From IMG/VR virus record IMGVR_UViG_3300020564_000003: 64,000 nucleotides of DNA. One strand, written 5' to 3'. Source of the DNA: an uncultured virus (IMG/VR IMGVR_UViG_3300020564_000003). Its lineage: Duplodnaviria > Heunggongvirae > Uroviricota > Caudoviricetes. The position numbers were made by a program, and so were the translations under genes. Shown piece after piece: positions 19,833-36,852 of the stretch (positions are counted from its first letter, which is position 1; every line of letters begins with the position of its first letter). The notes under the pieces are model-generated. The model did no database searches, was not told where the DNA came from, and saw only the letters and a list, made by a program, of their open reading frames with translations.

Positions 19833-20117
19833 ATGAGTACAAAGGCATTAGTACCCTTAAACGTACTGGCTAAGAGCAGCGAGCCTGTTGGCCAACGTGC
19901 AGGTGACCTATACTTTGACACTACAACATTAAAGTTAAGAATATACGATGGCACACTTTGGATTGACATTGTCGGTACTGGTGGCTCTGGACAACTTAAC
20001 GTAGATGGTGGAAGACCAGCCTCTTTCTACGGTGGAACTCCAAATGTATTTGGTGGCTTCCCATCCTCTACATTTGAGGGGTCTTACACAGGGTCTTATG
20101 ACGGAGGAGTTTCGTAA
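19833..20117 (+). CDS. Small fibre-associated protein
   Basis: GDLYFDTT..LRIYDG..W and DGG motifs; coupled to next gene. Confidence 0.55.
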   Translation: MSTKALVPLNVLAKSSEPVGQRAGDLYFDTTTLKLRIYDGTLWIDIVGTGGSGQLNVDGGRPASFYGGTPNVFGGFPSSTFEGSYTGSYDGGVS

Positions 20118-22309
20118 TGGCAGTTGTTAATATTCTACTACGCAGAGGAACTGCGGCTGAGTGGACCGCATCAAACCCAATTCTTCTTGAAGGTGAAGTT
20201 GGCGTAGAAACTGACAGTAAAAAGCTTAAAGTTGGAGACGGGCTTACAGTTTGGGCTTCTCTACCTTACATCACACTAACTCCAGCAGCTGCATCTAGCC
20301 TCTACGCTACGATTGCTAACCCAACATTTACTGGAACAGTCTCCCTTGGAACTGGTGTTGGCATTCTGTTTGAAGGCGCAACTGCAAATGATTTTGAAAC
20401 TGCATTACAAGTAGTAGACCCTACAGCAGATAGAACACTGTCTCTGCCAGATGCAACAGGAACACTAGCTACACAGGAATATGTAACCACTGAAATAGGA
20501 ACACATAACTCAGACACAACCTCCGTTCATGGAATTGCGGATACATCAGCACTTGCCACAAAGACATATGCAGACACCGCTGTAAGCACCCATAGCTCAG
20601 ATACAACGTCTGTGCACGGTATTACGGATACAGCTGACCTTGCTACAAAGTCATACGCAGATACTGCAGCTGCTTCAGCAGTTTCTACATCAGTTTTTAA
20701 TCACTCATCAGACACTCTAGACGTTCACGGCATTGCAGACACAGCGGCACTTGCTACAAAAACGTATGCTGATACTGCAGTGTCTACGCACTCTTCAGAT
20801 ACGACTTCTGTTCATGGCATTACAGATACCGCCGAACTTGCTACAAAGACTTATGCAGATACTTCAGTTTCCACACACAGCTCAGATACAACCTCTATTC
20901 ACGGCATTGCAGACACTGCAGAGCTAGCTACAAAGACATATGCAGACACTGCTGTTTCAACACACTCTTCGGACACAACTTCTGTCCATGGTATTGCAGA
21001 TACCGCAAATCTTGCTACAAAGTCATACGCAGATGGTGCTGTGTCTACTCACGAAGCAGACACAACTTCTGTACATGGGATTGCAGACACTGCAGAGCTA
21101 GCTACAAAGACATATGCAGACACTGCTGTTTCAACACACTCTTCGGACACCACTTCTGTACATGGGATTGCAGATACCAGTCTGCTCGTAACAACAACTG
21201 GAACTCAAAACCTTACCAATAAAACGTTAACTACCCCAATTATTAATGGTCCAGAAATTACTGCTACTGGTGGAGTTCCACGTATTCACGGTATTTATCT
21301 TCCAGAGCCACACACCATTACGTTTGAAGGCTCAACAACAGATGAGTTTGAAACAGTGTTAACAGTTGCAAACCCAACAGCAGATAGAACTGTAACTATT
21401 CCAGATGCAACTACTACTCTCGTTGGAAGAGATACGACAGATACTCTTACAAATAAAACTTTAACTTCACCAGTAATTAATACTCCTACTGGAATTACTA
21501 AATCTGATGTTGGTCTGGCTAACGTTGATAATACAACAGATGCGAACAAGCCAATCTCAACTGCTACACAAGCAGCCCTTGACCTTAAGGCCCCAAAATC
21601 AACGCCAACATTTACTGGCACAGTTACAGCGTCAAACGACCTTGTTGTTGATGGAAACTTAACTGTAAACGGTACAACGTTTAACGCATCATCAACATCT
21701 ATCGTAATTGAAGATAACATTCTTCAGCTTGCTCATCAAAATGCAGCTAACGCAGTTGACCTTGGTCTTGTCGTTGGGTATAACGATGGCGCAACAAAGC
21801 ATGCAGGTCTTGTAAGAGACGTATCTGACGCTAAGTGGAAGTTGTTTCAAGGCGTAACTACAGAGCCTACAACAACTGTAAACTTTGGCCAAGGGTCACT
21901 AGATAACCTTGCAGTTGCAGCACTTGAGGCAACAACAGTAACCCCTTCATCTGGAGTAGTGTTTACAGACGGCACTCAGACAAAAGAAGGCGTCCCATCA
22001 CGCACACCAATTATTCAAAAGACGGCTTCTTATACGCTTTCAGCCTTGACTGAAAGAGACACTTTAATTGAGGTCGCTAGTTCAAGTGGTACAACAATTA
22101 CTATCCCATTGAACTCAACAGTAGCCTTTCCAGTAGGGACATCAATTGATATTCTTCAAACTTCTACAGGGCAAGTGACCATCGCTGGAGCTGTTGGAGT
22201 AACAGTTAACGCAACACCTGGCTTAAAACTTCGCACAACTTGGTCATCTGCAACTCTCTTCAAGAGAGCAGAAAATACCTGGGTTGTCTTTGGCGACTTG
22301 ACGGCTTAA
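20117..22309 (+). CDS. Tail/head fibre protein with Mtd-N (hyaluronidase-N-like) domain and His repeats
   Basis: LRRGTAAEWTASNPILLEGEVGVETD..KLKVGDG; eight ~29-aa repeats; TKSDVGLANVDNT fibre motif. Confidence 0.8.
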   Translation: MAVVNILLRRGTAAEWTASNPILLEGEVGVETDSKKLKVGDGLTVWASLPYITLTPAAASSLYATIANPTFTGTVSLGTGVGILFEGATANDFETALQVVDPTADRTLSLPDATGTLATQEYVTTEIGTHNSDTTSVHGIADTSALATKTYADTAVSTHSSDTTSVHGITDTADLATKSYADTAAASAVSTSVFNHSSDTLDVHGIADTAALATKTYADTAVSTHSSDTTSVHGITDTAELATKTYADTSVSTHSSDTTSIHGIADTAELATKTYADTAVSTHSSDTTSVHGIADTANLATKSYADGAVSTHEADTTSVHGIADTAELATKTYADTAVSTHSSDTTSVHGIADTSLLVTTTGTQNLTNKTLTTPIINGPEITATGGVPRIHGIYLPEPHTITFEGSTTDEFETVLTVANPTADRTVTIPDATTTLVGRDTTDTLTNKTLTSPVINTPTGITKSDVGLANVDNTTDANKPISTATQAALDLKAPKSTPTFTGTVTASNDLVVDGNLTVNGTTFNASSTSIVIEDNILQLAHQNAANAVDLGLVVGYNDGATKHAGLVRDVSDAKWKLFQGVTTEPTTTVNFGQGSLDNLAVAALEATTVTPSSGVVFTDGTQTKEGVPSRTPIIQKTASYTLSALTERDTLIEVASSSGTTITIPLNSTVAFPVGTSIDILQTSTGQVTIAGAVGVTVNATPGLKLRTTWSSATLFKRAENTWVVFGDLTA
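20468..21187 (+). repeat. Eight ~87-bp coding repeats (ATKTYADTAVSTHSSDTTSVHGIADTAEL)
   Basis: Visible in protein and DNA; third copy has an 8-aa insertion. Confidence 0.9.
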
Positions 22310-22330: not shown

Positions 22331-23413
22331 ATGGCATCGGGTAAAAGAATTGGAAAAAAGTCACAGGCTTCAAATGACTTTTTAGAGCCATTAGCTCCTA
22401 CAGGCGTATCTGCTTCAAATGTTGGAACAGGCAGAGCGTACAATAACGGCGCAGCGGTTGTTTCATTCTCTTTACCTGCACTTTCTCCAGCAGCAACTTC
22501 ATTTACAGTAACAGCAAGTTCAGGCCAGACAGCAAGCGGGTCATCATCTCCAATTACAGTTACTGGCATTCCTGTTAGTGCATCTGTAACATTTACAGTA
22601 ACAGCTACAAATGCTGCAGGAACTTCTCCCGCCTCTACTGCCTCGTCTGCAATCGCTATTACAACAAGGCCACAGGCACCACAGTCAGTTTCTGCAGCCA
22701 CAGTTTCTGCAAACCTTAATAGAATTAGCTGGACTGCTGGAGCCAATGGCGGTAGTGCAATTACCTCTTACACAATTACTGGCTCTGACGGCACAAGTTA
22801 CACTGGCATTTCTGGCTCAGCAGTGTCGTATGATGCTGCAGATAGCACGCCTTCTGGCCCAGCTCCAGGCTCACAGAGCTATACTATTGTTGCTATCACT
22901 TCGGTAGGAACTTCAGATGCAGCCTCTACAAGTTCTATTACGACTATTTCTCCATTCTTCCCATTCTTTCCTCCGTTCTTTCCTCCGTTCTTTCCATTCT
23001 TTCCATTCTTCCCTCCATTCTTCCCTCCATTCTTCCCATTCTTTCCTCCGTTCTTCCCACCATTCTTCCCATTCTTCCCATTCTTCCCTCCATTCTTCCC
23101 TCCATTCTTCCCATTCTTTCCTCCATTCTTCCCACCATTCTTCCCATTCTTCCCACCATTCTTCCCACCATTCTTCCCATTCTTCCCATTCTTCCCATTC
23201 TTCCCACCATTCTTCCCACCATTCTTCCCACCATTCTTCCCATTCTTCCCACCATTCTTCCCACCATTCTTCCCACCATTCTTCCCATTCTTCCCACCAT
23301 TCTTCCCACCATTCTTCCCACCATCCTTCCCATCATTTGGTGGCTGTGGGTCAGACTGTTTCTACTGTCTGTATGACTTCGGTGCAGGGTGCGGTTGTTC
23401 GTGCGCTTTCTAA
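22331..23413 (+). CDS. Fn3-domain protein with 129-aa Pro/Phe repeat and Cys-rich C-terminus
   Basis: GGAG RBS; two Fn3-like domains (YTITG, TFTVTATNAAG); (P)PFF repeats; GGCGSDCFYC...CGCSCAF. Confidence 0.85.
   Translation: MASGKRIGKKSQASNDFLEPLAPTGVSASNVGTGRAYNNGAAVVSFSLPALSPAATSFTVTASSGQTASGSSSPITVTGIPVSASVTFTVTATNAAGTSPASTASSAIAITTRPQAPQSVSAATVSANLNRISWTAGANGGSAITSYTITGSDGTSYTGISGSAVSYDAADSTPSGPAPGSQSYTIVAITSVGTSDAASTSSITTISPFFPFFPPFFPPFFPFFPFFPPFFPPFFPFFPPFFPPFFPFFPFFPPFFPPFFPFFPPFFPPFFPFFPPFFPPFFPFFPFFPFFPPFFPPFFPPFFPFFPPFFPPFFPPFFPFFPPFFPPFFPPSFPSFGGCGSDCFYCLYDFGAGCGCSCAF
22952..23338 (+). repeat. 9/12-bp tandem array CCATTCTTC / CCACCATTCTTC encoding 14 PFF + 20 PPFF + PPSF + PSF
   Basis: Counted from sequence; only three G in 387 nt on + strand; variation is synonymous in the P/F frame. 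Confidence 0.95.
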
Positions 23414-23454
23414 GATATGGTATATTTATTAAGTAACTACAAAAGGAGCACTTG

Positions 23455-23886
23455 ATGAACACATATGTATTTGCAACAAAAATATCTGAAGACTCGTACG
23501 AAGTCTTTAATATGCTGCATCTTGAGAGTCCTAATGCGGACCCTCTAATTCAGCGCATTGAGAATGCGCTAGATAGCGGTCTTCCAATAACAACAATGGT
23601 TACTACAGACATTGAAAATGTATACCCTGGGGCAGTTTGGGATGGTGAAGCTTTTGTGGGAGGAGAGAGGCCTGAAAGGTACAACGATACCCCTGACTGG
23701 GGAAAGTACTCTTTCCTAGTAGATAACACCATGTTCTTAACAACAGTATCCCCAAAAGGTGGTCACACAGATTTGATGAATGCCGCTGCTTTTGCACAAG
23801 AAGTTATTCTTCTTAGAGTACCAGAGGGCCAAACCGTTAATCGCGGTTCTATCTGGGACGGCACAACCTTTACGTCTCCAGAGTAA
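23455..23886 (+). CDS. Hypothetical protein with two internal repeats ending GxxWDGxxF (possible fibre chaperone)
   Basis: AGGAG RBS; GAVWDGEAF and GSIWDGTTF. Confidence 0.7.
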   Translation: MNTYVFATKISEDSYEVFNMLHLESPNADPLIQRIENALDSGLPITTMVTTDIENVYPGAVWDGEAFVGGERPERYNDTPDWGKYSFLVDNTMFLTTVSPKGGHTDLMNAAAFAQEVILLRVPEGQTVNRGSIWDGTTFTSPE

Positions 23887-23889
23887 CCT

Positions 23890-24135
23890 ATGTCTAAATG
23901 GAGTGAATGGAAAGAGGCTCTTGGAGACTCAAGGCCTTGGCACTTAATTGATTCTGGTAAAAAGCTTGATGACCAGGAGATTATTAAAAAAAGACTTGAT
24001 GAATGCATGTCTTGTGAAAACCTCATTAAAATTACAAAAAGCTGTAAACTATGCGGGTGCATTATGCCGTTAAAAACAACGCTTGCAGATGCAGAATGCC
24101 CTATTGGAAAATGGAAAAGACAGTCACTTAATTAG
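23890..24135 (+). CDS. Cys-rich DUF6171-like small protein, copy 1
   Basis: RxxxCxxC...CxxCGC...K......CPxxKW. Confidence 0.75.
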   Translation: MSKWSEWKEALGDSRPWHLIDSGKKLDDQEIIKKRLDECMSCENLIKITKSCKLCGCIMPLKTTLADAECPIGKWKRQSLN

Positions 24136-24153
24136 ATTATAGGAAGGCAAAAA

Positions 24154-24861
24154 ATGCACAATGAAAATGAAAATATCTGGTTTACAAAAGATAGGTCAGA
24201 GACTGCATCAAATAGAGTTCCTGAAAGAGCTCTAGACGATAAAGTAAGTGTTAAAAATTTAGGTTTGGGACTACACCTCTACCAAAACACTTTCTCACGT
24301 GAAGATGCCGCAAGATACATTAACACTCTTGAGTCCAATCTATCATCAGGCAACAAATATAAGTGGTCAGAGGCGCAAGTTACACAATCTGCTGTCCCAG
24401 TTAAGCGGGCAAGAGACTGTGTAGATTTTAAGTATAAGCAGGAGAACCTTGGGCCAAGAGATGAGTCAAACGCTGAACTTATAGACTTGCATGAGGAGAT
24501 ATACCAAAAGCTTAAGTACTGTATAGACGACTATGCTAGGTATTGGGGTATTAACGTCGTATATTACGAAGCTTTTAACTTTGTAAAGTATGAGGGGGCA
24601 GGGACTCACTTCAACATTCACGCAGACCACGGTCCTGCATACAACTGCACAGTATCTGCGGTTATTTATATTAATGATGATTATGAAGGTGGAGACCTTA
24701 AGTTCCCAAGACTTGATAACTTAGTTTATAAGCCAAAAGTAGGGGACATTGCAGTATTCCCATCAAACTATATTTATGAGCACGCTTCTCTGCCGATGGT
24801 TTCAGGTACAAAATATTGCGTTGTTGTGATGACAGACATTAACGAGTTAGGGCACAAGTAA
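24154..24861 (+). CDS. 2OG-Fe(II) oxygenase, prolyl-4-hydroxylase-like (1)
   Basis: HAD...YINDDYEGG...YEH...GTKY. Confidence 0.9.
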   Translation: MHNENENIWFTKDRSETASNRVPERALDDKVSVKNLGLGLHLYQNTFSREDAARYINTLESNLSSGNKYKWSEAQVTQSAVPVKRARDCVDFKYKQENLGPRDESNAELIDLHEEIYQKLKYCIDDYARYWGINVVYYEAFNFVKYEGAGTHFNIHADHGPAYNCTVSAVIYINDDYEGGDLKFPRLDNLVYKPKVGDIAVFPSNYIYEHASLPMVSGTKYCVVVMTDINELGHK

Positions 24862-25628
24862 TGGCTTTAGTAGCCATATTTAGGTCATTTAGGCCGTGGA
24901 TAGATAAAAAGCATATCTCTGTTCCAGTACCGACACAGACGCAAATGCCTGCCTGGTATAAAAATGCAGACAGATTTGCAAAAATGCCAAACGGAGAATA
25001 TTACAAAGCTCCAAAAGAAATTTGCCCATTTCCTAAAGAGGGTACAACAGATGATTATGGAAAAATTCCTACATGGAAAGCGTGCCCAGCTATTATGGAC
25101 GCCTTTACAACTGGGTACATCTTTAAAACACCGTGCGATTTAACTTTCTATAAAAATACTCAAGGAATCATAGATGTAAAAATCAATAACCCTAAGTACC
25201 AAGACTTCTGTACCCAAAGGCCCCCAATGCCACAGTTTGAGCATCCAAAAGGATACTATCAAACTCATTTTGCTTGGAGCTCTCCTTGGGGACTAGAACT
25301 TCCAGAGGGATACAGCGCACTGTTTATGACACCAATGAATAGGTTTGACTTACCGTTCCTAAACACTACTGGCGTTGTAGACTCAGACAAGCTTCACTTA
25401 CTTGGAACTTTTCCATTCTTTCTTCCAGAAGGTTGGGAAGGTACCATCCCAGAAGGAACTCCGTATATGCAGGTTCTCCCGTTTAAACGAGAAAACTGGG
25501 AACACAAAATAGACATTCCAGACCAATCTACAATGTATGATAAATTAGTAAAGAACATGCAATTTTACCGTCAGCCTGATGGCGGCGTATACCAAACCAA
25601 AGTTTGGTCAAAACGAGACTACAAATAG
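24861..25628 (+). CDS. DUF6065-related protein
   Basis: KACPAIMDAFTTGY, PWGLELPEGYSAL, GVVDSD, GTPYMQVLPFKR; C-terminal pattern shared with 26294 gene. Confidence 0.55.
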   Translation: MALVAIFRSFRPWIDKKHISVPVPTQTQMPAWYKNADRFAKMPNGEYYKAPKEICPFPKEGTTDDYGKIPTWKACPAIMDAFTTGYIFKTPCDLTFYKNTQGIIDVKINNPKYQDFCTQRPPMPQFEHPKGYYQTHFAWSSPWGLELPEGYSALFMTPMNRFDLPFLNTTGVVDSDKLHLLGTFPFFLPEGWEGTIPEGTPYMQVLPFKRENWEHKIDIPDQSTMYDKLVKNMQFYRQPDGGVYQTKVWSKRDYK

Positions 25629-25637
25629 GAGAATGCA

Positions 25638-26294
25638 ATGCAAACATGGACAGAAAAAGTTGATTTAGGTAGTGGCATCTTTTGCTATAAGGGCGTCATC
25701 AATAAAGACATTGATGTTATAGGTAGAATTGAAGCAAACCTTAAGCCAGAAGGAGATATGACTGGGTATGCTTGGCAACCAGCGTACGTTGGGTATAGGC
25801 AGCTTATGCCAGAGTACAGAGACTGCAACGACTTTAAATTTAAGAAGACTGATATAGAAAATGACAAGAGTCAGGTCAGCTTAAATCTTCAAGCTTTGTG
25901 GCAAGATTTGTATGACGTTAAGTTACCTGCGGTTGAAGACTACTGCAGAATGTACAACATTAACAATTTAAAGTATTGGGAAGCATTCAACTTCATTAAG
26001 TATGGTCCAGGACAACACTTTATGGAGCACCATGACCATGGATTTTCTTACAACTGTACAGTTTCTTTAGTTGGGTATCCAAACGATGATTACGAAGGTG
26101 GCGAGCTTTACTTTAGGTTACAGAACTTAAAGGTTAAAGCAGATGCTGGGGACCTGTTTATTTTTCCATCAAATTTTATGTACCCACATCAAGCAATGCC
26201 AGTGACTTCTGGCGTCAAATACTCTATTGTGACAATGCTTGACTACAGCAAAAAGTTTCATACTCCAGAGATGTATAGCGCAGAATCAGATTAA
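25638..26294 (+). CDS. 2OG-Fe(II) oxygenase, prolyl-4-hydroxylase-like (2)
   Basis: HHD...YPNDDYEGG...YPH...GVKY; close paralog of copy 1 (RDCxDFK, EAFNFxKY, YNCTVS). Confidence 0.9.
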   Translation: MQTWTEKVDLGSGIFCYKGVINKDIDVIGRIEANLKPEGDMTGYAWQPAYVGYRQLMPEYRDCNDFKFKKTDIENDKSQVSLNLQALWQDLYDVKLPAVEDYCRMYNINNLKYWEAFNFIKYGPGQHFMEHHDHGFSYNCTVSLVGYPNDDYEGGELYFRLQNLKVKADAGDLFIFPSNFMYPHQAMPVTSGVKYSIVTMLDYSKKFHTPEMYSAESD

Positions 26295-27010
26295 TGTTCA
26301 ACATCTCAGTTGAAAAAACACACGGGGCTCTCTTTGATGTCCAACCTATGCCCATTAAAAGAGACTGGATGGATGCAACGTCAGAGAATCACGCTTACAG
26401 GTGTTTTCCAGTAACCCAGTCAAATGTAATTGGCTGGAGTTTATCGTGCTTACAGGACATTGAGTTTATTTGGGATGGAATAAACGACCAAACACCAGAC
26501 CGTGTCCAAGTGTTTAGTCCAGAAGGGGCTTACTCTGGTAGAGGTCAATCCTCTATAAGCTTAAACACGGGACTGGTTTTTAGGACAGATGAAGATGTCA
26601 GTATCTTTACTATTAACCCAGTAAATTATTTTAGTGATGAGTTTGAAACTATGTCGTCCCTAATCAGCACATCTTTTTACGACAACCCTTTGCCTTTAGC
26701 TATCAAGGCAAAGATTGCAAATAAAAGGGTAGTTATTAAGGCTGGAACCCCAGTTGCCACAATTATCCCAATATCTTTGTCAAAGTTAAATGGAACAAAC
26801 ATTGAGGTTGTTGAGTACCAAGACCCAGGTAGCAAACGATTAAATGCAAACATTTCTTACGGAGAGGCTGCACAAAAAGTAAACTCTTCTGGAAAATGGA
26901 CAGATTGGTACAGAGACGCTGTAAACGAAAGAGAAGAAAGCCTAGGCTCTCATGAAGTAAAGACCCTAAAATTAGGGGTAATAGATAAAACGAAAAGGGA
27001 TACACTATGA
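26294..27010 (+). CDS. DUF6065-like protein
   Basis: RDWMDAT...HAYRCFP....N..GW; GTPVATIIP. Confidence 0.65.
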   Translation: MFNISVEKTHGALFDVQPMPIKRDWMDATSENHAYRCFPVTQSNVIGWSLSCLQDIEFIWDGINDQTPDRVQVFSPEGAYSGRGQSSISLNTGLVFRTDEDVSIFTINPVNYFSDEFETMSSLISTSFYDNPLPLAIKAKIANKRVVIKAGTPVATIIPISLSKLNGTNIEVVEYQDPGSKRLNANISYGEAAQKVNSSGKWTDWYRDAVNEREESLGSHEVKTLKLGVIDKTKRDTL

Positions 27011-27693
27011 GCATGGAACAAAACAAAGATTCGTATACCGTAGTAAAAAGAACCCCATCTATAACTCCATCAGGCTGGTTTGGGGATAGCAAAGACATGA
27101 TTGTTGAGCTAGAAAACTTCATGACCCAAGAAGAGATAGAGTTCTTAGAAAAAGCTGCTAAGTCTTTAACAATTTGGGATGTTACGGAAAGCCATACAAA
27201 TGAGAATGGGACCGTTACCTACGACTCAGATTATTGGAAAGACCGAGTCGCAACTCAGCCAACTTTAGATAAAAATGACCCAAAGATATCTCCAGTAATT
27301 GCTGGGCTATTTCAAAGACTACGACCAATTATTGAAGAGTTCTACCAGGTAGAAGTTATACCAACTGGGACAACTATTGTTAAATGGCTTCCTGGGCAGT
27401 TTCAAAAACCACACGCTGATAAAGAGCTCCACGAGGGCCCCGACGCTGGAACACCTAACGACTTTCCAAACTATGACCTATCAAGTTTGTTTTATTTAAA
27501 TGATGACTATGAGGGCGGAGAGCTGTATTTCCCACTACAGGGTGTGCAGTTTAAGCCTAAAAAAGGCGCTGCTTACTTCTTCCCAGGTGACAAAAACTAC
27601 ATCCATGGGGTTACTGAGGTAAAAAGCGGCTTACGTTTTACATGCCCTTTCTTTTGGGAAATAACAAAGCATACAGGACCTAGACAACCATAA
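27007..27693 (+). CDS. 2OG-Fe(II) oxygenase, prolyl-4-hydroxylase-like (3)
   Basis: HAD...YLNDDYEGG...YIHGV...GLRF. Confidence 0.9.
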   Translation: MSMEQNKDSYTVVKRTPSITPSGWFGDSKDMIVELENFMTQEEIEFLEKAAKSLTIWDVTESHTNENGTVTYDSDYWKDRVATQPTLDKNDPKISPVIAGLFQRLRPIIEEFYQVEVIPTGTTIVKWLPGQFQKPHADKELHEGPDAGTPNDFPNYDLSSLFYLNDDYEGGELYFPLQGVQFKPKKGAAYFFPGDKNYIHGVTEVKSGLRFTCPFFWEITKHTGPRQP

Positions 27694-27701
27694 CGACGAG
27701 G

Positions 27702-27714
27702 TACAATCAACCCT
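27702..27714 (+). promoter_or_regulatory. Internal -10 element for probable leaderless transcript
   Basis: TACAAT 7 nt upstream of ATG 27715. Confidence 0.45.
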
Positions 27715-28488
27715 ATGAAATCAATTTACGACATCCCTCTTAACTCAGCTGAGGGCTCTCCTGACTTCTTAAGTCAATTTAAAGGCAAAGTAACCTTGTT
27801 GACGAATACAACCGTCGGCTGCGGCAACGCTAATCAAATGGAAGTTCTCCAATGGCTTCAAGATAAGTACGGTGGAGATGATTTCCAAGTTATTGCAATT
27901 CCTACTAATGACTATTGTGGCCCAGGAGTAACTAAGGGCAAGTGGTCTGAAGGCATTACCTGTGGCTTAGATTCACAAGAGTATGGTCAAGAAGTCTACG
28001 GAACCACGTTTAAGTTCTCAGAGATGGTGTCGTCAAACCCAAATGAGAGTGCTACTGAGCTTAGCCCTTACAAGGGCGATAACTCTGTAAACGGACTAGG
28101 TCAACCAAGAAAAGAAACTCATGAGCTATACAAAGAAATAGCTGAGCAAATGCTTGCGTTTGCTGAAAAACAAAGAGAACTTGGCATTCCAGACAGAGAT
28201 GGCTATTTGTCACCTTGGTTAAATCAACCTTTTGGCAACGGCGCAATGCAGGGCGGTAACTTTGAGAAGTACCTTATTGATAGAGATGGGTATGTAGCTA
28301 ACTGGTTTCAATGCACAGTACTAAATTACGATATTGAAAAGACACTAAAAGAAGCCCTAATAGCTGCGGGAAACCCTGCGGGTATGGGAGAAGGCAGAAC
28401 CCCAGAAGTATTTGAAGAAGAGTATGCCCTTGTTCAACAAGAGATAGAAAAGTTAATTGCTGGAGATAAATCCCTATTAAATAACTAA
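27715..28488 (+). CDS. Divergent glutathione peroxidase-like (thioredoxin-fold) protein
   Basis: SIYDI....G....LSQFKGKV.L..N....CG, Q...LQ..Y....F.VIAIP.N, NFEKYLIDRDG. Confidence 0.8.
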   Translation: MKSIYDIPLNSAEGSPDFLSQFKGKVTLLTNTTVGCGNANQMEVLQWLQDKYGGDDFQVIAIPTNDYCGPGVTKGKWSEGITCGLDSQEYGQEVYGTTFKFSEMVSSNPNESATELSPYKGDNSVNGLGQPRKETHELYKEIAEQMLAFAEKQRELGIPDRDGYLSPWLNQPFGNGAMQGGNFEKYLIDRDGYVANWFQCTVLNYDIEKTLKEALIAAGNPAGMGEGRTPEVFEEEYALVQQEIEKLIAGDKSLLNN

Positions 28489-28504
28489 ACGGAGTAAAAG
28501 TACA

Positions 28505-29260
28505 ATGAACCTAGCAAACAAAAAACGACTAACAAAAGACATCGTTGTTTATGAGAACTTCATAAGCAAAGAAGATTGCAAAAAGATGATTCAAGCCCTA
28601 GATGCTCAGGCAGAGAATGGGGCAATTTCTTGGATGCCAATTTCATTTTACGAGTCCTATTCCTCAGTTTTGCCACAAGACAACGACCAAGAGGTTATTG
28701 ACGCTGGTCTATCTCCAACTATATTTTCAGATATTGAAAAGGCAATGCCTGAAGCAATTGCTTCAGTCCACGACCTTGACCCAAAAACAATCTGTAAAAT
28801 TGGGTACCACACACAGAAGTGGGAGCCAGGAGCATATGCAAGAATTCACTCTGACAACACAGATGCTGAGGGAAACTCAGGTGCGTTTACAAGAAGCCGC
28901 TACGCAGGGTTTCTATACTTAAACGATGATTTTGAAGGTGGGCTTTTACGGTTCCCAGCACAAAACTTAGAGATTAAACCAGAAGTTGGGCTGCTTGCTG
29001 TATTTGACGGCGGGTTTAACAATATGCACGAAGTATCTCTTATTACAGGTGGTGTCAGATACACCATTGGTTCTTTCTGGGATGACCGAGAAGAGTCAGC
29101 GTACCCACAAGAGGTGCGAGATGCATGGGCTGAAGAGATGAAGGCTACTAGAGCGCAACAAGAGATTGAACGAGCAGAGTGGCAAGAGCTTCTTAAGCAA
29201 GGCTGGAAGTTAGACGCAGCAGGAAATAAGTACAAACTAGAAGATGTTGCAAATGATTGA
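28505..29260 (+). CDS. 2OG-Fe(II) oxygenase, prolyl-4-hydroxylase-like (4)
   Basis: HSD...YLNDDFEGG...MHEV...GVRY. Confidence 0.9.
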   Translation: MNLANKKRLTKDIVVYENFISKEDCKKMIQALDAQAENGAISWMPISFYESYSSVLPQDNDQEVIDAGLSPTIFSDIEKAMPEAIASVHDLDPKTICKIGYHTQKWEPGAYARIHSDNTDAEGNSGAFTRSRYAGFLYLNDDFEGGLLRFPAQNLEIKPEVGLLAVFDGGFNNMHEVSLITGGVRYTIGSFWDDREESAYPQEVRDAWAEEMKATRAQQEIERAEWQELLKQGWKLDAAGNKYKLEDVAND

Positions 29261-29912
29261 GTCTTTTAAACAACAGTTGATAGACAGCGGATACGTAGTT
29301 ACAGATATTACCCCAGAGCTATTCTCTGTTGAGAACTTTTTATCCCAAGACCAAATAAACACTTTTTGGGAGATTATCCACAGTACGTCACAAGAAGACT
29401 GGGAAGTAGAGTACCACGCAAACTTAAAGTATTTTTGTTTGGAAAAATTTGGTAGAGATGATGTAGATAATCTGGTTGCTGAAGGTAAGTTTGAGATTAC
29501 CCAAAATTGGAAAGATAAAAACTTTAACATACTACATCATGAAATCCAAAGGCCTTTATACGATGTTGTAAACTCTATGGTGGTCAAAGCTGACCCAGAA
29601 TTAATTTTAAGTGGATTTGCAACAATTCAACGAATGCAAGCAGGGGTAGAGTTAAAAGCGCACACTGACCAAAAAACAGACCCATCTATAAAGTATGCCA
29701 CCATCGTATACATCAATGACGACTACGTAGATGGTGAGTTATTTTTTCCAAACCTTGATATCCAGTTAAAACCTAAGCCAGGAACTATGTTATTTTTTCC
29801 AGGAAACGAAGAGTATGAGCACGGAGTCAAGCATGTAGGAGATGGACCAATACGATATGTTCTTGTTGGGTTCATTAAAGAAAAAGACCATTACGCAAAA
29901 AATAAGTACTAA
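29253..29912 (+). CDS. 2OG-Fe(II) oxygenase, prolyl-4-hydroxylase-like (5)
   Basis: HTD...YINDDYVDG...YEHGV...PIRY; start 29244 or 29253. Confidence 0.88.
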   Translation: MIESFKQQLIDSGYVVTDITPELFSVENFLSQDQINTFWEIIHSTSQEDWEVEYHANLKYFCLEKFGRDDVDNLVAEGKFEITQNWKDKNFNILHHEIQRPLYDVVNSMVVKADPELILSGFATIQRMQAGVELKAHTDQKTDPSIKYATIVYINDDYVDGELFFPNLDIQLKPKPGTMLFFPGNEEYEHGVKHVGDGPIRYVLVGFIKEKDHYAKNKY

Positions 29913-29923
29913 GGGAGAAACAG

Positions 29924-30679
29924 ATGAACAGAGAAATACTGGACCCAAAAGCGTACTACTATACAGATGCTATTGAGGACTTTGATACCTTTAAAAAGGT
30001 TTGGAAAGAGTTAGACACTCTTGAGCAATACACAGACTTAGGCGTAAACGTTTGGGACACCTGGACCGCTTCTAATGATAAAAACTTTATTTATGGAGAA
30101 ACAAAAACATTTGATATTAATGCAATTAATAGGCTTAGCGTCATTTACGATTCAGATAGCGGAAAAGTAGCGGAAAAAAGTAAGTATATATACGACGCGG
30201 TTATGACTGCAATGTATAACGTTTGCAAAGACTATGCTTCTTCTTTAGGGGACTTTGATGAGCCAAGACTTTTTCCAACGTTTAATATAAAAAAGTACAA
30301 TACTGGAATGGGCATGGGCGCACATTTTGACCAGCTAGATGGCGATAAGACCTTAAGATATTCATTAGTAATGTACTTAAACGACGACTGTGAAGGCGGC
30401 GAAATCTCTTTTCAGTTAAAAGATTATGATGGAGGATGGACTAGCGCTGATGGTTTTTCTAAGGGGTCAGCTCCAGCCGTAGACTTGGACTACGACGTAT
30501 CTGTTGCAAATAAAGCAATTGATTTTGGACTAAAGCCAAAAGAAAATAGCGTTGTCATATTCCCAGCCTTTCCCCCATACTTTCATACCGCACACGTTGT
30601 AAAGTCTGGTTTTAAATACATGATTCCTGGTCACTGGATTCATAACAATATGGAGCTTAATAAGAACCAGGGTATGTAA
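29924..30679 (+). CDS. 2OG-Fe(II) oxygenase, prolyl-4-hydroxylase-like (6)
   Basis: HFD...YLNDDCEGG...YFH...GFKY. Confidence 0.88.
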   Translation: MNREILDPKAYYYTDAIEDFDTFKKVWKELDTLEQYTDLGVNVWDTWTASNDKNFIYGETKTFDINAINRLSVIYDSDSGKVAEKSKYIYDAVMTAMYNVCKDYASSLGDFDEPRLFPTFNIKKYNTGMGMGAHFDQLDGDKTLRYSLVMYLNDDCEGGEISFQLKDYDGGWTSADGFSKGSAPAVDLDYDVSVANKAIDFGLKPKENSVVIFPAFPPYFHTAHVVKSGFKYMIPGHWIHNNMELNKNQGM

Positions 30680-31345
30680 TTGAAAACAGCAATTGTTACT
30701 GGAGCAAGTAAGGGCGTAGGCCTAGCAACAGTCAAGCGTCTATCTGAAAATGGGTACAAGGTTATTGCTGTTTCAAGAAACCTGTCTAAAGTATCTGAGC
30801 TTGTATCTGACAACGTTGAAGTATACAGCCTAGATGTAACAGACTCTAAAGCAATAGAGGGCTTCTTTGAAAAGTATAAGGATATTACTTTAGACCTTCT
30901 AGTTAATAATGCTGGTGGTGGTTCTAGCCCAACTAACATTATTAATGAGACTATGGATAACTTTAGACGAGCCTACGATATAAACGTATCTGGGCCTATG
31001 TACCTTTCTCAATTATTTGTGCCGTGTATGGAAAAGTCAGATTCCCCAACAATTGTATTTATCACCTCTTTTGGAGGTAAGGTGCCGTATCGCGGTGGAG
31101 GAAATTACACAAATGCCAAGAGGGGTGAACGCGGTTTAATTGACACAATGAGACTTGAGTTCCCACAATTTGGCATTAAAATTACAGAAATTTGTCCAGC
31201 AACTATTGATACCCAAGAGCAAAAACGAGACCAAGCCTTAACTGCAGAGGATTTAGCAGAAGCTATTTACTGGGTAGGGTCGCTACCAAGTCACGTTAAT
31301 ATAAATGAGATTGAAATTTGCCATATTAACAGTAGTAAGTACTAG
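30680..31345 (+). CDS. Short-chain dehydrogenase/reductase (YdfG-like)
   Basis: TGASKGVG, LVNNAG, YxxxK (YTNAK), LTAEDLAEAIYWV..LP.HVNI. Confidence 0.92.
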   Translation: MKTAIVTGASKGVGLATVKRLSENGYKVIAVSRNLSKVSELVSDNVEVYSLDVTDSKAIEGFFEKYKDITLDLLVNNAGGGSSPTNIINETMDNFRRAYDINVSGPMYLSQLFVPCMEKSDSPTIVFITSFGGKVPYRGGGNYTNAKRGERGLIDTMRLEFPQFGIKITEICPATIDTQEQKRDQALTAEDLAEAIYWVGSLPSHVNINEIEICHINSSKY

Positions 31346-31351
31346 CCTTGT

Positions 31352-32002
31352 ATGCCTAAAGATGTTCCTAAGATAATTTGGCAAACACATAACTACCTAT
31401 ATGAAGATTTGCCAGAACATTTAAAGCAAGTAACCCAGACTTGGATAAATTTAAATCCAACCTGGGAGTATAGGTACGTTAATCATGTGGATAGGGCAGA
31501 ATTCGTAAAGACAGAAGACCCCGTGCTCTATACTCACTATGAAAAATTAGCTCCTATAACTCAAGGTGATATATGGAGATACCTAGTAACCTATAAATAT
31601 GGTGGGGCGTATGCAGATATGGATTCGGTATGTACAGTTCCTCTAGACTACATGCTTGAAACCTTGCAGTGTGAGCATGACCTTTTAGCAACTAGCCAAT
31701 CAGGTATGCCCCCGCTTGACTATAATAATTGTAATTATGTTGTTGGAAAAAACTCAAAAAATCTTGAAATAATTATAAAAAGTATGAAAGATGAATACTA
31801 TTTAACTGATAAGTTAAACAAGTGGGCTTGCCCCTTAACGCGTTTTTGTGTACAAGCTTCCATAAGTGATACTGCCTGTAAAGACTTTTACGGTGCCCTT
31901 CATTCAGAGGGGTTTAAGTCAGCTTTTGACGATACTTTTGAGGTAAACTATTACGGGAAGCATATAGCCTACAAGCAATTAATCCGTGACTTGCCCCGCT
32001 AA
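31352..32002 (+). CDS. Glycosyltransferase family 32 (OCH1-like, DxD)
   Basis: VPKIIWQT, W..LNP.WEY, DIWRY...YKYGGAYADMD. Confidence 0.85.
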   Translation: MPKDVPKIIWQTHNYLYEDLPEHLKQVTQTWINLNPTWEYRYVNHVDRAEFVKTEDPVLYTHYEKLAPITQGDIWRYLVTYKYGGAYADMDSVCTVPLDYMLETLQCEHDLLATSQSGMPPLDYNNCNYVVGKNSKNLEIIIKSMKDEYYLTDKLNKWACPLTRFCVQASISDTACKDFYGALHSEGFKSAFDDTFEVNYYGKHIAYKQLIRDLPR

Positions 32003-34967: not shown

Positions 34968-35228
34968 ATGAGCAACAAACCACGTAATGCACGTCCTTGG
35001 GATTTATTCAATAAAAACCTTGGAAGAGTTCAAACAACTGTTGCAGAAGAACGGTACGAAATCTGTTCTGCTTGCCCTAAGTTAATAAAACTAACAGGTC
35101 AGTGTAAAGAATGTGGCTGCTTTATGCAGTCAAAAGTAAAACTTCCAAATGCATTTTGTCCACTAGACAAGTGGGCCGCTGTAGAGATTAGCTACACAGA
35201 AGACCAATCAGAAGAGGAAACAAAGTAA
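34968..35228 (+). CDS. Cys-rich DUF6171-like small protein, copy 2
   Basis: RPWDL...RYEICSAC...CKECGC...K..LP...CPLDKW. Confidence 0.75.
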   Translation: MSNKPRNARPWDLFNKNLGRVQTTVAEERYEICSACPKLIKLTGQCKECGCFMQSKVKLPNAFCPLDKWAAVEISYTEDQSEEETK

Positions 35229-36075: not shown

Positions 36076-36327
36076 ATGCCGTTAAATAAACCTGTTGATG
36101 GAGAGCTTAACTGGGATGTAAAACTAAATACTGCACTTGATTATTTAGATGCGCAAACTATTTTAAAAGCACCTATTGCATCTCCAACCTTTACTGGAAA
36201 AGTAAACCTTACTAATACGACTGCACCTACTGCCAATATGACAGGTGGAGGAATTTTGTATGTAGAAGCTGGAGCTCTGAAGTACAGAGGCTCTTCAGGA
36301 ACGATTACAACGATTGGACCAGCATAA
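36076..36327 (+). CDS. Small virion protein
   Basis: P..G..NWDVKLN.AL N-terminus and [21 protein letters not shown]-terminus, both seen in actinophage tail proteins. Confidence 0.6.
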
Positions 36328-36452
36328 TGTCAGAGTTTGAAGATGACATCATTGAGGATGTTGACTTTGAAGATTTTGAGCCTGAGCTAGATGAAGACCT
36401 GTTTGATGAGGACTTTGACTTTGAAGACGACGAAGAAGAGGAAGACGAATGA
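36327..36452 (+). CDS. Extremely acidic micro-protein (41 aa)
   Basis: [46 protein letters not shown] coupling. Confidence 0.55.
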   Translation: MSEFEDDIIEDVDFEDFEPELDEDLFDEDFDFEDDEEEEDE

Positions 36453-36722: not shown

Positions 36723-36852
36723 AGGACCTTGTTGGGATGGCTATGTTCAAGTAGGCATGAAGATGAAGAACGGTAAGAAAGTGCCAAACTGTGTTCCTGA
36801 AGGTTCTGGTAAGAAAAAAATCGCTAAACCTAAAAAGAAAGTGAGCAAGTAA
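36715..36852 (+). CDS. Small basic protein with CWxGY...VPNCVP motif (45 aa)
   Basis: MAKGPCWDGYVQVGMKMKNGKKVPNCVPEGSGKKK... Confidence 0.7.
   Translation: MAKGPCWDGYVQVGMKMKNGKKVPNCVPEGSGKKKIAKPKKKVSK

What the first reader, a model, noticed from the sequence alone, without database searches (positions are those of the whole stretch)
22331..32002. Candidate phage-encoded protein-modification system: Pro/Phe-repeat substrate plus six prolyl-hydroxylase-like oxygenases, peroxidase, SDR and glycosyltransferase
Seen: an Fn3 protein with 57 prolines in a 129-aa (P)PFF tract lies among virion fibre genes. A tightly packed same-strand run follows: two small genes, six 2OG-Fe(II) oxygenases with intact HxD...H triads, two DUF6065-like proteins, a GPx-like protein, an SDR and a GT32, several joined by TAATG/ATGA overlaps. 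Established: prolyl 4-hydroxylases act on Pro-rich repeat proteins (collagen, plant extensins), and hydroxyproline is a glycosylation site in plant and algal wall proteins. Inference: the repeat is the dedicated substrate and the cassette is a substrate-plus-tailoring operon. It could make a hydroxylated, possibly oxidised and glycosylated virion appendage, or RiPP-like peptides. Phage 2OG oxygenase clusters are usually labelled auxiliary metabolic genes with no known substrate; here a plausible substrate is adjacent. I know of no description of this system but could not search.
Basis: partly seen in the sequence, partly recalled or inferred. Interest (0 to 1): 0.93.

Follow-up and report, generated by a model that had tools for sequence, protein, structure and literature searches.

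The report
Phage Pro-Phe fibre tract with hydroxylases
An uncultured lake phage encodes a fibre-region protein with a 129-residue chain of only proline and phenylalanine, followed by six proline-hydroxylase-like enzymes, so the chain is a likely but untested target of phage oxygenases whose role is unknown.

Summary
Residues 208-336 of the 22331-23413 protein hold 57 Pro, 70 Phe and 2 Ser. A tightly packed same-strand run follows: six PF13640 oxygenases with intact HxD...H, two DUF6065 paralogues, a GPx-like protein, an SDR and a GT32.

The substrate reading is supported by comparative genomics only. In an unbiased DNA-pattern sample of IMG/VR, 62 of 72 testable Pro-Phe loci have at least 3 such oxygenases downstream. 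All 66 testable cassette loci have a Pro-Phe protein upstream. Independent evolutionary contrasts number only 2-3, so there is no statistical proof. No chemistry is shown.

- The DUF6065 proteins have a dUTPase fold and are homologous to Syn9 gp43. This ties the cassette to the cyanophage tandem dioxygenase arrays of Iyer et al. 2010, which also sit behind fibre genes.
- Oxy1's model is closest to protein prolyl hydroxylases: PHD2, algal P4H and PBCV-1 vCPH.
- The make-up of the tract covaries with the enzyme set.
- Relatives with Phe-Gly-type repeats carry a different, probably PF13759-like, enzyme family.

This scan found the same system eight times before on other DNA. My searches found no published description.

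The parts
20117..22309 (+). Fibre protein A (730 aa). It has an Mtd_N N-terminus, 29-residue tandem repeats and a C-terminus ending in GDLTA. It always precedes the Pro-Phe protein in relatives.
   Evidence: Pfam Mtd_N 56 bits; tail-fibre PHROGs; tandem repeat at 20723-21178; A-B gene order in the loci.
22331..23413 (+). Protein B (360 aa): conserved N-terminus, Fn3-like body, Pro-Phe tract and a small Cys-rich tip.
22952..23338 (+). Pro-Phe tract, residues 208-336: 57 P, 70 F, 2 S, as 20 PPFF and 14 PFF units. This is the candidate substrate.
   Evidence: Phe codons are TTC in 63 of 70 in the tract, against TTT 148: TTC 53 in 15 other genes.
23339..23410 (+). C-terminal tip of B: 24 residues with 7 Cys.
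   Evidence: Translation; tip classes in relatives.
23452..23886 (+). Protein C (144 aa; the likely start is the ATG at 23455). No family found. There is a weak lead to tail-fibre assembly proteins.
   Evidence: No Pfam, PHROG or NCBIfam hit; Atlas nearest named clusters score 0.76-0.79, a lead only.
23890..24135 (+). Small Cys protein D, DUF6171-like (81 aa).
   Evidence: Pfam 23.9 bits, under the cut-off of 27; phrog_13558 at E 2e-15.
24154..24861 (+). Oxygenase 1 (PF13640), with a prolyl-hydroxylase-like fold.
   Evidence: Pfam 42 bits; triad; model pLDDT 92.4; Foldseek top hits are PHD2, P. putida P4H, algal P4H and PBCV-1 vCPH.
24861..25628 (+). DUF6065-like paralogue F (255 aa), with a dUTPase-like fold and an invariant Cys75.
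   Evidence: phrog_7084 at E 2e-34; its HMM finds the H family at 1e-5 to 1e-7; model pLDDT 91.6; fold searches; hhalign to Syn9 gp43 at 96.4%.
25638..26294 (+). Oxygenase 2 (PF13640), 41% identical to oxygenase 1.
26294..27010 (+). DUF6065 protein H (238 aa).
   Evidence: Pfam 91.3 bits.
27007..27693 (+). Oxygenase 3 (PF13640).
27715..28488 (+). GPx-like thioredoxin-fold protein J (257 aa) with a Cys at the GPx active-site position.
   Evidence: Pfam GSHPx 34.3 bits; NCBIfam glutathione peroxidase and gpx7, far under their cut-offs.
28505..29260 (+). Oxygenase 4 (PF13640).
29244..29912 (+). Oxygenase 5 (PF13640).
29924..30679 (+). Oxygenase 6 (PF13640) with a roughly 33-residue insert.
30680..31345 (+). 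Short-chain dehydrogenase/reductase N.
   Evidence: Pfam adh_short 138 bits.
31352..32002 (+). GT32-type glycosyltransferase O. It occurs only in the closest relatives.
   Evidence: Pfam Gly_transf_sug 50.8 bits; distribution among loci.
32081..34957 (+). Protein P (958 aa), a paralogue of B's N-terminal part. It has more Fn3 units and a Cys-rich region but no Pro-Phe tract.
34968..35228 (+). Second DUF6171 protein, Q (86 aa).
   Evidence: Pfam 30.9 bits.

Best explanation
Protein B is a distal part of a two-gene tail-fibre unit (fibre A plus B). Its Pro-Phe tract links the Fn3 body to a small Cys-rich tip.

The cassette embedded in the late virion gene module is a protein-tailoring battery made together with the virion. 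At least some of the six prolyl-hydroxylase-like oxygenases hydroxylate prolines of the PFF/PPFF units. The other paralogues, the two dUTPase-fold DUF6065 proteins, the SDR and (in this subclade) the GT32 would add further steps: other positions, oxidation of the new hydroxyls, and sugar addition. Together these would turn a very hydrophobic polymer into a soluble, stiff stalk.

What is shown: the gene content, the catalytic residues, the folds of two proteins, and the conserved linkage of tract and enzymes. What is inferred: that B is in the virion, that the tract is the substrate, the residue attacked, and every chemical step.
For: 1. Linkage.
- The order A-B-(C-D)-E-F-G-H-I-(J or an extra Oxy1-like gene)-K-L-M-N recurs across the 157 loci then held.
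- In 80 IMG/VR loci sampled only by a degenerate Pro-Phe DNA pattern, 62 of 72 testable loci have at least 3 oxygenase genes downstream on the same strand. Ten do not, and 8 have too little flank to test.
- I searched the whole contigs of five of the ten exceptions. Three carry arrays elsewhere (6, 13 and 7 PF13640 hits), one carries a single hit, and a 38-kb fragment carries none.
- In the reverse direction, 66 of 66 testable cassette loci have a Pro-Phe protein upstream; 14 were too short to test.

2. In another lineage the cassette is flanked by two Pro-Phe proteins, one on an Fn3 body and one on a PASTA body. Of the 66 loci examined, 55 have a Pro-Phe protein plus at least 3 oxygenases.

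3. Enzymes track the repeat.
- Of 109 non-redundant proteins with mixed PFF+PPFF tracts, families E, F, G, H, I, K and M are each present in about 90%.
- Of 9 proteins with PP-only tracts, G and H are present in 9 of 9 and J in 8 of 9, but F, K, L, M and N are present in 0 of 9.
- B-family proteins with Phe-Gly-type repeats lack this cassette. They are followed instead by 1-3 copies of another family (18 proteins). That family's nearest named Atlas clusters are PF13759 oxygenases, at score 0.96.

4. Enzyme kind.
- All six are PF13640 over the cut-off and have intact triads.
- Oxy1's model (pLDDT 92.4) is closest to protein prolyl hydroxylases: PHD2, P. putida P4H with EF-Tu, Chlamydomonas P4H with (Ser-Pro)5, and PBCV-1 vCPH, at TM 0.55-0.67 by query.
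- Weak sequence hits point to B. anthracis P4H and to lysyl hydroxylase LH3.

5. Position. The 9.7-kb cassette lies on the same strand between the fibre genes and the sheath, tube and baseplate genes, with gaps of -17 to +38 bases.

6. The tract is translated as Pro-Phe. In relatives the same frame runs on into Cys-rich tips or into Hint-like domains, despite very different tract lengths.
Against: - No chemistry of any kind has been shown.
- On a tree of 68 B N-termini the tract changes state only 3 times. There are 2-3 independent contrasts, all in the same direction, but the sign test gives p = 0.5. Shared descent can therefore explain most of the co-occurrence.
- Ten of 72 testable Pro-Phe loci lack an adjacent array.
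- Syn9 has a related array (PF13640 genes plus a DUF6065 homologue) behind its fibre genes. No Pro-rich stretch was found in the 12 neighbouring gene products scanned (gp32-40, gp43, gp44, gp55).
- DUF6065-like genes stand alone next to ribonucleotide reductase in haloarchaeal viruses.
- Six to ten paralogues are more than simple proline hydroxylation of a two-unit repeat needs.
- Only Oxy1 was modelled.
- Whether B is in the virion is untested.
Confidence: 0.55

Rival explanations
1. The cassette is a fibre-adjacent metabolic or secondary-metabolite array of the kind Iyer et al. 2010 proposed for Syn9. It acts on a small molecule or on a non-ribosomal or host peptide. It sits next to B only because this site tolerates insertions and the whole block is inherited together.
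For: Iyer et al. 2010 (PMC2938197, passages read) read the Syn9 array as secondary-metabolite synthesis. The window's cassette shares two components with that array: PF13640 genes and a gp43 homologue. Syn9 has no Pro-Phe tract. There are few independent contrasts. An SDR and a GPx-like protein would fit small-molecule chemistry.
Against: No synthetase, halogenase, transporter or precursor-making gene lies in the cassette. The cassette sits inside the late virion module. The enzyme set changes with the repeat type. Oxy1's nearest folds are protein hydroxylases.
Confidence: 0.2
2. The enzymes do tailor virion proteins, but not the Pro-Phe tract. The targets would be the Cys-rich tips, fibre A, or the 958-aa Fn3/Cys-rich protein P. 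The tract would be an unmodified hydrophobic spacer.
For: The cassette is flanked by B and by P, which has no tract. A GPx-like thiol protein and two small 4-Cys DUF6171 proteins accompany Cys-rich tips. In Syn9 the array follows fibre and Gly-rich proteins that have no tract.
Against: Tips vary freely among 168 non-redundant Pro-Phe proteins: 63 Cys-rich, 56 short with fewer than 4 Cys, 34 Hint-like and 15 other long. The tract and the enzymes stay constant through that variation. The enzyme set follows the make-up of the tract.
Confidence: 0.15
3. The cassette modifies nucleotides or phage DNA, through dUTPase-fold proteins working with base-oxidising dioxygenases and a glycosyltransferase.
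For: DUF6065-like F has a dUTPase/dCTP-deaminase fold. Its homologues sit next to ribonucleotide reductase in HF2 and in loci L049 and L074. Oxy3 has a sub-threshold Tet_JBP hit, 21.4 bits against a cut-off of 34.9.
Against: Oxy1's nearest folds are protein prolyl hydroxylases rather than TET, JBP or AlkB. The cassette lies in the structural module, far from the replication genes at 54-64 kb. Its strict linkage to Pro-Phe proteins would be unexplained.
Confidence: 0.05
4. The tract is a RiPP-like precursor, cut into small Pro-Phe peptides. PPFF occurs in cyclolinopeptide A and FFPPFF-type cores in Amanita MSDIN genes.
For: The PPFF/FFPP motifs appear in papers on plant and fungal cyclic peptides (search listing and abstracts only). 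Oxy4 has a very weak hit to a cyclophane-peptide oxygenase model, E 0.006 at 16 bits against a cut-off of 150.
Against: No protease, cyclase or exporter was found. The tract is fused in frame between a folded Fn3 body and a tip or Hint domain. It follows a fibre gene in every lineage.
Confidence: 0.03

Closest known systems
Tandem dioxygenase array of Synechococcus phage Syn9, gp41-gp54 (Iyer, Abhiman, de Souza, Aravind 2010, PMC2938197; passages read)
   Same: Both have many tandem, mutually distant 2OG-Fe(II) dioxygenases on one strand directly behind fibre genes. Both include PF13640 members. Both include a dUTPase-fold protein with a conserved Cys: Syn9 gp43 matches the window's DUF6065 profile at 96.4% probability, E 1.4e-9, over 178 columns.
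   Different: Syn9 adds two tryptophan halogenases, a JmjC protein and PF13759 members, none of which is in the window. No Pro-rich stretch was found in the 12 Syn9 products scanned (gp32-40, gp43, gp44, gp55). The authors proposed secondary metabolites and named no protein substrate. That gp43 is the dUTPase-fold protein they mention is my inference; I did not see their figure or supplement.
Chlorovirus PBCV-1 prolyl 4-hydroxylase (vCPH, PDB 5c5t) with that virus's own Pro-rich repeat proteins
   Same: A virus-encoded P4H-type enzyme occurs with virus-encoded Pro-rich repeats as presumed substrates. Oxy1's model aligns to 5c5t at E 2e-9, TM 0.55 by query and 0.70 by target.
   Different: PBCV-1 is a eukaryotic algal virus with a single enzyme and charged Pro-rich repeats. 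That its substrates are the virus's own repeats is recalled (Eriksson et al. 1999); it was not read here, and PMC4613865 is not held. Here there are six to ten paralogues, a Pro-Phe polymer with no other residues, and accessory DUF6065, SDR and GPx-like genes, all in a tailed phage.
Bacterial operons of beta-hydroxylase-family dioxygenases and sulfotransferases with tail-collar or collagen-like proteins (Iyer et al. 2010, passages read)
   Same: A structural repeat protein is encoded beside its predicted hydroxylases, and substrate status is inferred from gene neighbourhood.
   Different: Those repeats are Gly-rich and collagen-like, and sulfation follows hydroxylation. Here there is no Gly-X-Y and no sulfotransferase in the window. 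One relative, L083, has a sulfotransferase-like gene and an Asp/Asn-hydroxylase-like gene.
Plant and algal extensin-type hydroxyproline-rich glycoproteins with P4H (for example Chlamydomonas P4H, PDB 3gze/2jig)
   Same: The proposed logic is the same: Pro-rich repeat, then Hyp, then O-glycosylation, giving a stiff extended rod. The fold is similar, and a GT gene is present here.
   Different: Extensin repeats are Ser-Pro(n). GT32 is not the known Hyp-arabinosyl or galactosyl transferase family (recalled). GT32 is absent from most relatives.

Membership tests
PF13640 (P4H-like 2OG-Fe(II) oxygenases) | Profile match over the curated cut-off | tested here: met
   Six of six proteins score 32.1-47.5 bits against a cut-off of 27.
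PF13640 (P4H-like 2OG-Fe(II) oxygenases) | HxD...H iron triad and a basic residue for the 2OG C5 carboxylate | tested here: met
   All six align with HxD, the distal H, and a K/R about ten residues later. The role assigned to the K/R is recalled from the family.
Protein prolyl 4-hydroxylases | Fold closest to solved prolyl hydroxylases | tested here: met
   Tested for Oxy1 only. The top Foldseek hits are PHD2, P. putida P4H, Chlamydomonas P4H, PBCV-1 vCPH and Dictyostelium PHD, at E 7e-11 to 1e-8. The other five oxygenases were not modelled.
Protein prolyl 4-hydroxylases | Hydroxylation of peptidyl proline | not testable with these tools
   This needs an enzyme assay or mass spectrometry.
DUF6065 (PF19541) | Profile match over the cut-off | tested here: met
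   H scores 91.3 bits against 26.6. F is missed by Pfam, but its family HMM finds H-family members at E 2e-7 to 9e-4, and both align with an invariant Cys.
dUTPase/dCTP-deaminase fold | Structural similarity over the beta core | tested here: met
   VIA-align ranks 1-21 and rank 23 are dUTPases, dCTP deaminases or viral proteins of that superfamily, at Z 9.0-5.3. Foldseek's best hits are also dUTPases, at E 1e-3. Z values of 8-9 are only moderately above background.
dUTPase enzymes | The five conserved dUTPase motifs and nucleotide hydrolysis | not tested
   Identity to dUTPases is 8-16%. The motifs were compared only by eye and from memory.
Syn9-type tandem dioxygenase array (Iyer et al. 2010) | Several tandem dioxygenases of distinct families | tested here: met
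   Six paralogues share 19-41% pairwise identity.
Syn9-type tandem dioxygenase array (Iyer et al. 2010) | Accompanying dUTPase-fold protein with a conserved Cys | tested here: met
Syn9-type tandem dioxygenase array (Iyer et al. 2010) | Tryptophan halogenases and a JmjC (MINA-clade) member | tested here: not met
   No such Pfam hit occurs among the window's cassette proteins. In Syn9, gp41 and gp42 are annotated as halogenases, and gp49 hits Pfam JmjC_2.
Glutathione peroxidase | Profile match; catalytic Cys/Sec with Gln, Trp and Asn | tested here: inconclusive
   Pfam GSHPx scores 34.3 against 27. NCBIfam equivalogs score far below their cut-offs, 45 against 270. A Cys is present at the active-site position. 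By my reading of the sequence against recalled motifs, Gln and Trp appear to be replaced.
SDR | adh_short profile, TGxxxGxG and YxxxK | tested here: met
   138 bits. Both motifs are visible in the translation.
GT32 | Gly_transf_sug profile with a DXD motif | tested here: met
   50.8 bits against 23. DMD is present in the translation.
Collagen-like proteins | Gly-X-Y triplets | tested here: not met
   The tract contains no Gly.
RiPP precursor systems | Leader/core peptide with a dedicated protease or cyclase | tested here: not met
   No protease or cyclase family was found among the 15 cassette proteins scanned. The tract is internal to a 360-aa protein.

The most novel reading that the evidence does not exclude
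Phage tandem dioxygenase arrays, unexplained since 2010, are in general fibre-tailoring systems. In this phage each paralogue would read one position of the PFF/PPFF repeat pattern. Some would make 3- or 4-Hyp and others would attack Phe. The dUTPase-fold DUF6065 proteins would be a new class of peptide-handling partner. Together with the SDR and GT32 they would convert an insoluble Pro-Phe polymer into a hydroxylated, partly oxidised and glycosylated rod, a collagen- or extensin-like material invented independently by phages. Sister phages with Phe-Gly-type repeats would use a different oxygenase family on a different repeat.
Probability: 0.3. Interest if true: 0.9.

Novelty: new variant of a known kind. 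Interest (0 to 1): 0.8.

Why it matters
Multi-copy 2OG oxygenases are among the commonest unexplained genes of aquatic phages and are usually filed as auxiliary metabolic genes. Here a chemically simple candidate substrate lies next to them in hundreds of contigs. Short synthetic peptides or simple co-expression can therefore test the idea directly.

If the idea holds, three things follow:
- It would show post-translational hydroxylation of a virion protein in a tailed phage.
- It would give a function to DUF6065 and to the Syn9-type arrays.
- It would add a natural Pro-Phe polymer to the known structural protein repeats. [quoted passage not shown]

Tried and rejected
- Complex prediction with Oxy1 (alignment A2), Fe and tract residues 204-250 gave no answer: score 0.00 against a mark of 0.32, and the controls were not run. 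This counts neither way.
- Megablast of the region, and tblastn of B and of H, against 50,697 phage records found no match. tblastn of F found only 49 haloarchaeal virus records.
- The window's own assembly is not held. The nearest record, G001, ends inside the cassette.
With protein H alone it returned three MAG contigs assigned to three different phyla, which is probably mis-binned phage DNA and gives no host.
- The promoter and terminator scan found no more sites than shuffled sequence.
- The family following the Phe-Gly-type repeats: Pfam matched 0 of 18 members to any oxygenase family. hhalign gave 1% against Syn9 gp48 and 0.4% against A2. Only the Atlas (0.96) and motif resemblance suggest PF13759.
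- RNA run X22 laid only short, mismatched tract pieces and nothing on the flanks, so it gives no evidence of expression of this phage.
- Literature searches. 'DUF6065' returned 0 papers. The prolyl hydroxylase/bacteriophage terms returned 17, the freshwater actinophage terms 931, of which I looked at the 15 listed, the PPFF-type strings 407, of which I looked at the 25 listed, and the cyanophage 2OG/tail-fibre terms 15. From the listings, none of the papers listed describes a phage Pro-Phe tract. The library lacks most subscription journals.
- Weak hits that I did not rely on: the YhhC cyclophane oxygenase model and Tet_JBP.

Full report
**What is there.** The window is a tailed phage with a contractile-tail gene set: terminase, portal, major capsid protein, sheath, tube, tape measure and baseplate, followed by replication genes. 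It has no near relative among 50,697 deposited phage records.

The host is probably an actinobacterium, though this is not shown. Four observations point that way:
- The capsid protein is 62% identical to those of Streptomyces phages.
- The window carries a PASTA-domain protein and a CHAP/PG_binding_1 lysin fragment.
- It carries a DUF7455 protein. That DUF7455 is mainly actinobacterial is recalled, not tested.
- The same DNA occurs in lake and freshwater metagenomes of many studies.

ORF 22331-23413 encodes 360 residues: a conserved N-terminus, an Fn3-like body (Pfam 25.6 bits against a cut-off of 25), then residues 208-336, then a 24-residue tip with 7 Cys. Residues 208-336 are 57 Pro, 70 Phe and 2 Ser, arranged as 20 PPFF, 14 PFF, one PPSF and one PSF. 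It is the only such tract in the window. Phe is coded TTC in 63 of 70 cases inside the tract, whereas 15 other genes prefer TTT by 148 to 53.

All six oxygenases keep HxD...H and a K/R. They share only 19-41% identity, so they are old paralogues. The second 'DUF6065-like' gene (24861-25628) is missed by Pfam but is a true paralogue: an HMM of its family finds the DUF6065 family at E 1e-5 to 1e-7.

One caveat concerns length. In contigs of three independent DNA runs the flanks are identical to the window, but nothing spans the tract. The unit count therefore rests on the window's own assembly.

**Relatives.** Searches with B and with the DUF6065-like protein F each returned 80 IMG/VR loci, out of 364 and 376 confirmed relatives. 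The order fibre A, B, (C, D), Oxy1, F, Oxy2, H, Oxy3, (GPx-like or another Oxy1-like gene), Oxy4, Oxy5, Oxy6, SDR recurs throughout. GT32 appears only in the closest relatives.

The tract is kept at the protein level. Its length varies widely, yet the same frame always continues into a tip. Among 168 non-redundant complete Pro-Phe proteins the tips fall into four classes:

| Tip class | Count |
|---|---|
| Small, Cys-rich | 63 |
| Short, fewer than 4 Cys | 56 |
| Hint/intein-like domain starting with Cys and ending ..HNK | 34 |
| Other long domain | 15 |

Pfam support for the Hint-like class is weak: 4 of 11 tested, all under the cut-off.

A word search with the tract alone found 74 proteins. 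Most have Fn3 bodies. Six have a PASTA domain. One (P0054) is a 603-aa repeat protein with PF09479 and PF18998 domains. One (P0002) carries several tracts separated by Cys-containing modules. The tract is therefore a portable linker between variable bodies and variable tips.

**Is the tract linked to the enzymes?** I ran three tests.

1. *An unbiased sample.* A degenerate DNA pattern for four Pro-Phe units returned 80 loci. Of the 72 that can be tested, 62 have at least 3 oxygenase genes downstream on the same strand and 10 do not. I searched the whole contigs of five of those exceptions. Three hold arrays elsewhere (6, 13 and 7 PF13640 matches), one holds a single match, and a 38-kb fragment holds none.
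2. *The reverse direction.* All 66 testable loci found through the cassette have a Pro-Phe protein upstream; 14 were too short to test.
3. *A second lineage, found with a PASTA/Pro-Phe/Hint protein.* Here the arrangement is fibre, Fn3/Pro-Phe/Hint protein, cassette, fibre, PASTA/Pro-Phe/Hint protein, so the enzymes are flanked by two tract proteins. Of 66 loci, 55 have a tract protein and at least 3 oxygenases.

Against this, a tree of 68 non-redundant B N-termini shows that most tract-bearing proteins form one clade. The tract changes state only 3 times. The 2-3 independent contrasts all go the same way, but the sign test cannot reach significance (p = 0.5). Shared descent therefore explains much of the raw co-occurrence.

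**Enzymes follow the repeat type.** Two observations go beyond simple presence or absence.

- *Tract composition.* Tracts that mix PFF and PPFF units (109 proteins with at least 8 kb downstream) come with families E, F, G, H, I, K and M in about 90% of cases. Nine proteins whose tracts have only PP-x-F units have G and H in 9 of 9 and the GPx-like gene in 8 of 9, but F, Oxy4, Oxy5, Oxy6 and the SDR in 0 of 9. These nine may be one clade, and best-hit labels are rough for distant loci.
- *Phe-Gly-type repeats.* Some B-family proteins carry repeats such as FSPFGVFG instead of Pro-Phe. My first count gave 12 of 12 such rows fewer than 3 oxygenases. That count used similarity to the window's own proteins and missed something: 9 of the 11 such loci whose downstream genes I examined carry 1-3 tandem copies of one unknown family directly behind B (18 proteins). 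Its conserved motifs (W.NIN, WHDH, GH.H, RITIAYD) resemble PF13759-type oxygenases. The ESM Atlas places it beside viral PF13759 clusters at 0.96. Pfam finds nothing in 18 of 18 and profile comparison is not significant, so this is a lead only. If it holds, the contrast is not cassette against no cassette. It is one oxygenase family on Pro-rich repeats against another on Pro-poor repeats, which is what a substrate relationship predicts.

**What the enzymes look like.** Oxy1, modelled with 44 sequences (pLDDT 92.4), is closest to protein prolyl hydroxylases: human PHD2 with HIF peptides, P. putida P4H with EF-Tu, Chlamydomonas P4H with (Ser-Pro)5, PBCV-1 vCPH and Dictyostelium PHD. One small-molecule enzyme, PolD, appears at rank 40. 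Sequence-only searches give weak hits to B. anthracis P4H, lysyl hydroxylase LH3 and PiuC.

The DUF6065-like protein F, modelled with 57 sequences (pLDDT 91.6), has a dUTPase/dCTP-deaminase fold. The VIA-align list is dUTPase-superfamily proteins down to rank 23 with one exception (rank 22), at Z 9.0-5.3. Foldseek agrees weakly. The F+H alignment has an invariant Cys.

**Link to known work.** Iyer et al. 2010 (PMC2938197, passages read) described a cluster of ten tandem dioxygenases in cyanophage Syn9. [quoted passage not shown]

Syn9 gp43 matches the window's DUF6065 profile at 96.4% probability (E 1.4e-9, 178 columns, Cys aligned). gp46 does not match. The Syn9 array lies directly behind the fibre genes gp32-gp39. 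It includes PF13640, PF13759 and JmjC members. No Pro-rich stretch was found in the 12 Syn9 gene products scanned (gp32-40, gp43, gp44, gp55); Gly-rich proteins sit there instead.

The window's cassette is thus a freshwater counterpart of a known but unexplained array type. It differs in having an obvious candidate substrate beside it. The same comparison also shows that such arrays exist without Pro-Phe tracts. In addition, DUF6065-like genes stand alone beside ribonucleotide reductase in haloarchaeal viruses.

**Reading.** The most likely reading (about 0.55) is that B is the distal partner of fibre A, and that the cassette, co-transcribed inside the virion module, tailors the tract. Proline hydroxylation is the core step. 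The other steps (other positions, oxidation by the SDR, sugar addition by GT32 in this subclade) are conjecture, as are the roles of the DUF6065 and GPx-like proteins.

The rivals are:
- an array acting on a small molecule (0.2)
- tailoring of other virion parts, such as the Cys-rich tips (0.15)
- nucleotide or DNA modification (0.05)
- a RiPP-like precursor (0.03)

A structure-based docking test gave no verdict.

**Novelty.** My searches found no paper on a phage Pro-Phe tract or on DUF6065; for the two searches with many hits I saw only the listed rows. The kind of system is known: a virus-encoded P4H with virus-encoded Pro-rich repeats in PBCV-1 (recalled; structure 5c5t seen), and tandem dioxygenase arrays in cyanophages. 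I therefore class this as a new variant of a known kind.

This scan reported the same system eight times before on other genomes. I used those notes as leads and re-tested the linkage, the Syn9 connection and the PBCV-1 similarity myself.

Noticed in passing
Loci L026, L040, L045, L058, L078, L080-L084; proteins P0045, P0056, P0033, P0011: In many relatives the Pro-Phe or Phe-Gly tract is followed directly by a Hint/intein-like domain that starts with Cys and ends ..HNK at the stop codon. Thirty-four of 168 non-redundant tract proteins are of this kind. Self-cleavage at that Cys would leave the tract as the mature C-terminus, possibly joined to another molecule. Pfam support is weak: Hint_2 or Intein_splicing under the cut-off in 4 of 11 tested.
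   Followed up: partly
L035, L058, L068, L075, L077, L078, L080, L083 (genes directly after the B homologue): Eighteen proteins of about 220 aa form one family, in 1-3 tandem copies behind B proteins with Phe-Gly-type repeats. The conserved motifs are W.NIN, WHDH, GH.H and RITIAYD. The Atlas places the family next to PF13759 oxygenases at 0.96, but Pfam and hhalign do not.
   Followed up: partly
L083 4632-5835; L075 7059-7928: Loci with Phe-Gly-type repeats also carry a sulfotransferase-like gene, an Asp/Asn beta-hydroxylase-like gene (PF05118, E 4e-14) and a GlcNAc-transferase-like gene. These are further protein-tailoring-type enzymes next to B homologues.
   Followed up: no
L225 (Halorubrum phage HF2 48119-49003) and 48 other haloarchaeal virus records: DUF6065-like homologues (25-32% identity) occur in haloarchaeal tailed viruses. 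In HF2 the gene stands alone next to ribonucleotide reductase, with no oxygenase nearby. In loci L049 and L074 an F-like gene is also followed by a class II ribonucleotide reductase.
   Followed up: partly
L224 (Syn9) 8856-12328: Directly upstream of the Syn9 dioxygenase array lie a poly-Gly/Cys protein (gp36) and two Gly_rich_2 proteins (gp38, gp39). These are possible counterparts of the Pro-Phe proteins as low-complexity neighbours of an array.
   Followed up: no
window 20723-21178: Fibre protein A contains about 5 copies by DNA, and more at the protein level, of an 87-base/29-residue repeat (..HGIADTAELATKTYADTAVSTHSSDTTSV..).
   Followed up: no
window 36468-37342: A run of small, very Lys-rich ORFs lies here. 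Two of them begin MCxxCGC (36853-37038 and 37038-37166), and an acidic 41-aa ORF lies at 36327-36452. None has a Pfam match.
   Followed up: no
window 2377-2583 and 7409-7699: Two small proteins with families of unknown function: DUF7455 (69.8 bits) and DUF6321 (90.3 bits).
   Followed up: no
window 3276-5816: An 846-aa protein with a PA14 domain, which is a carbohydrate-binding type, lies upstream of the head genes and has no PHROG match.
   Followed up: no
L354-L356: Contigs carrying this cassette (72-88% identity to H) are binned into MAGs labelled Flavobacteriales, Luteolibacter and Acidimicrobiaceae. These are most likely phage contigs mis-binned into bacterial genomes.
   Followed up: no
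window 22952-23338; contigs behind L071, L087 and G001: Short-read assemblies break at or near the tract. Several related contigs end inside it or inside the cassette, and unitigs of three runs stop at 22979 and resume at 23295. Tract-bearing phages are therefore likely to be fragmented in metagenome assemblies.
   Followed up: partly
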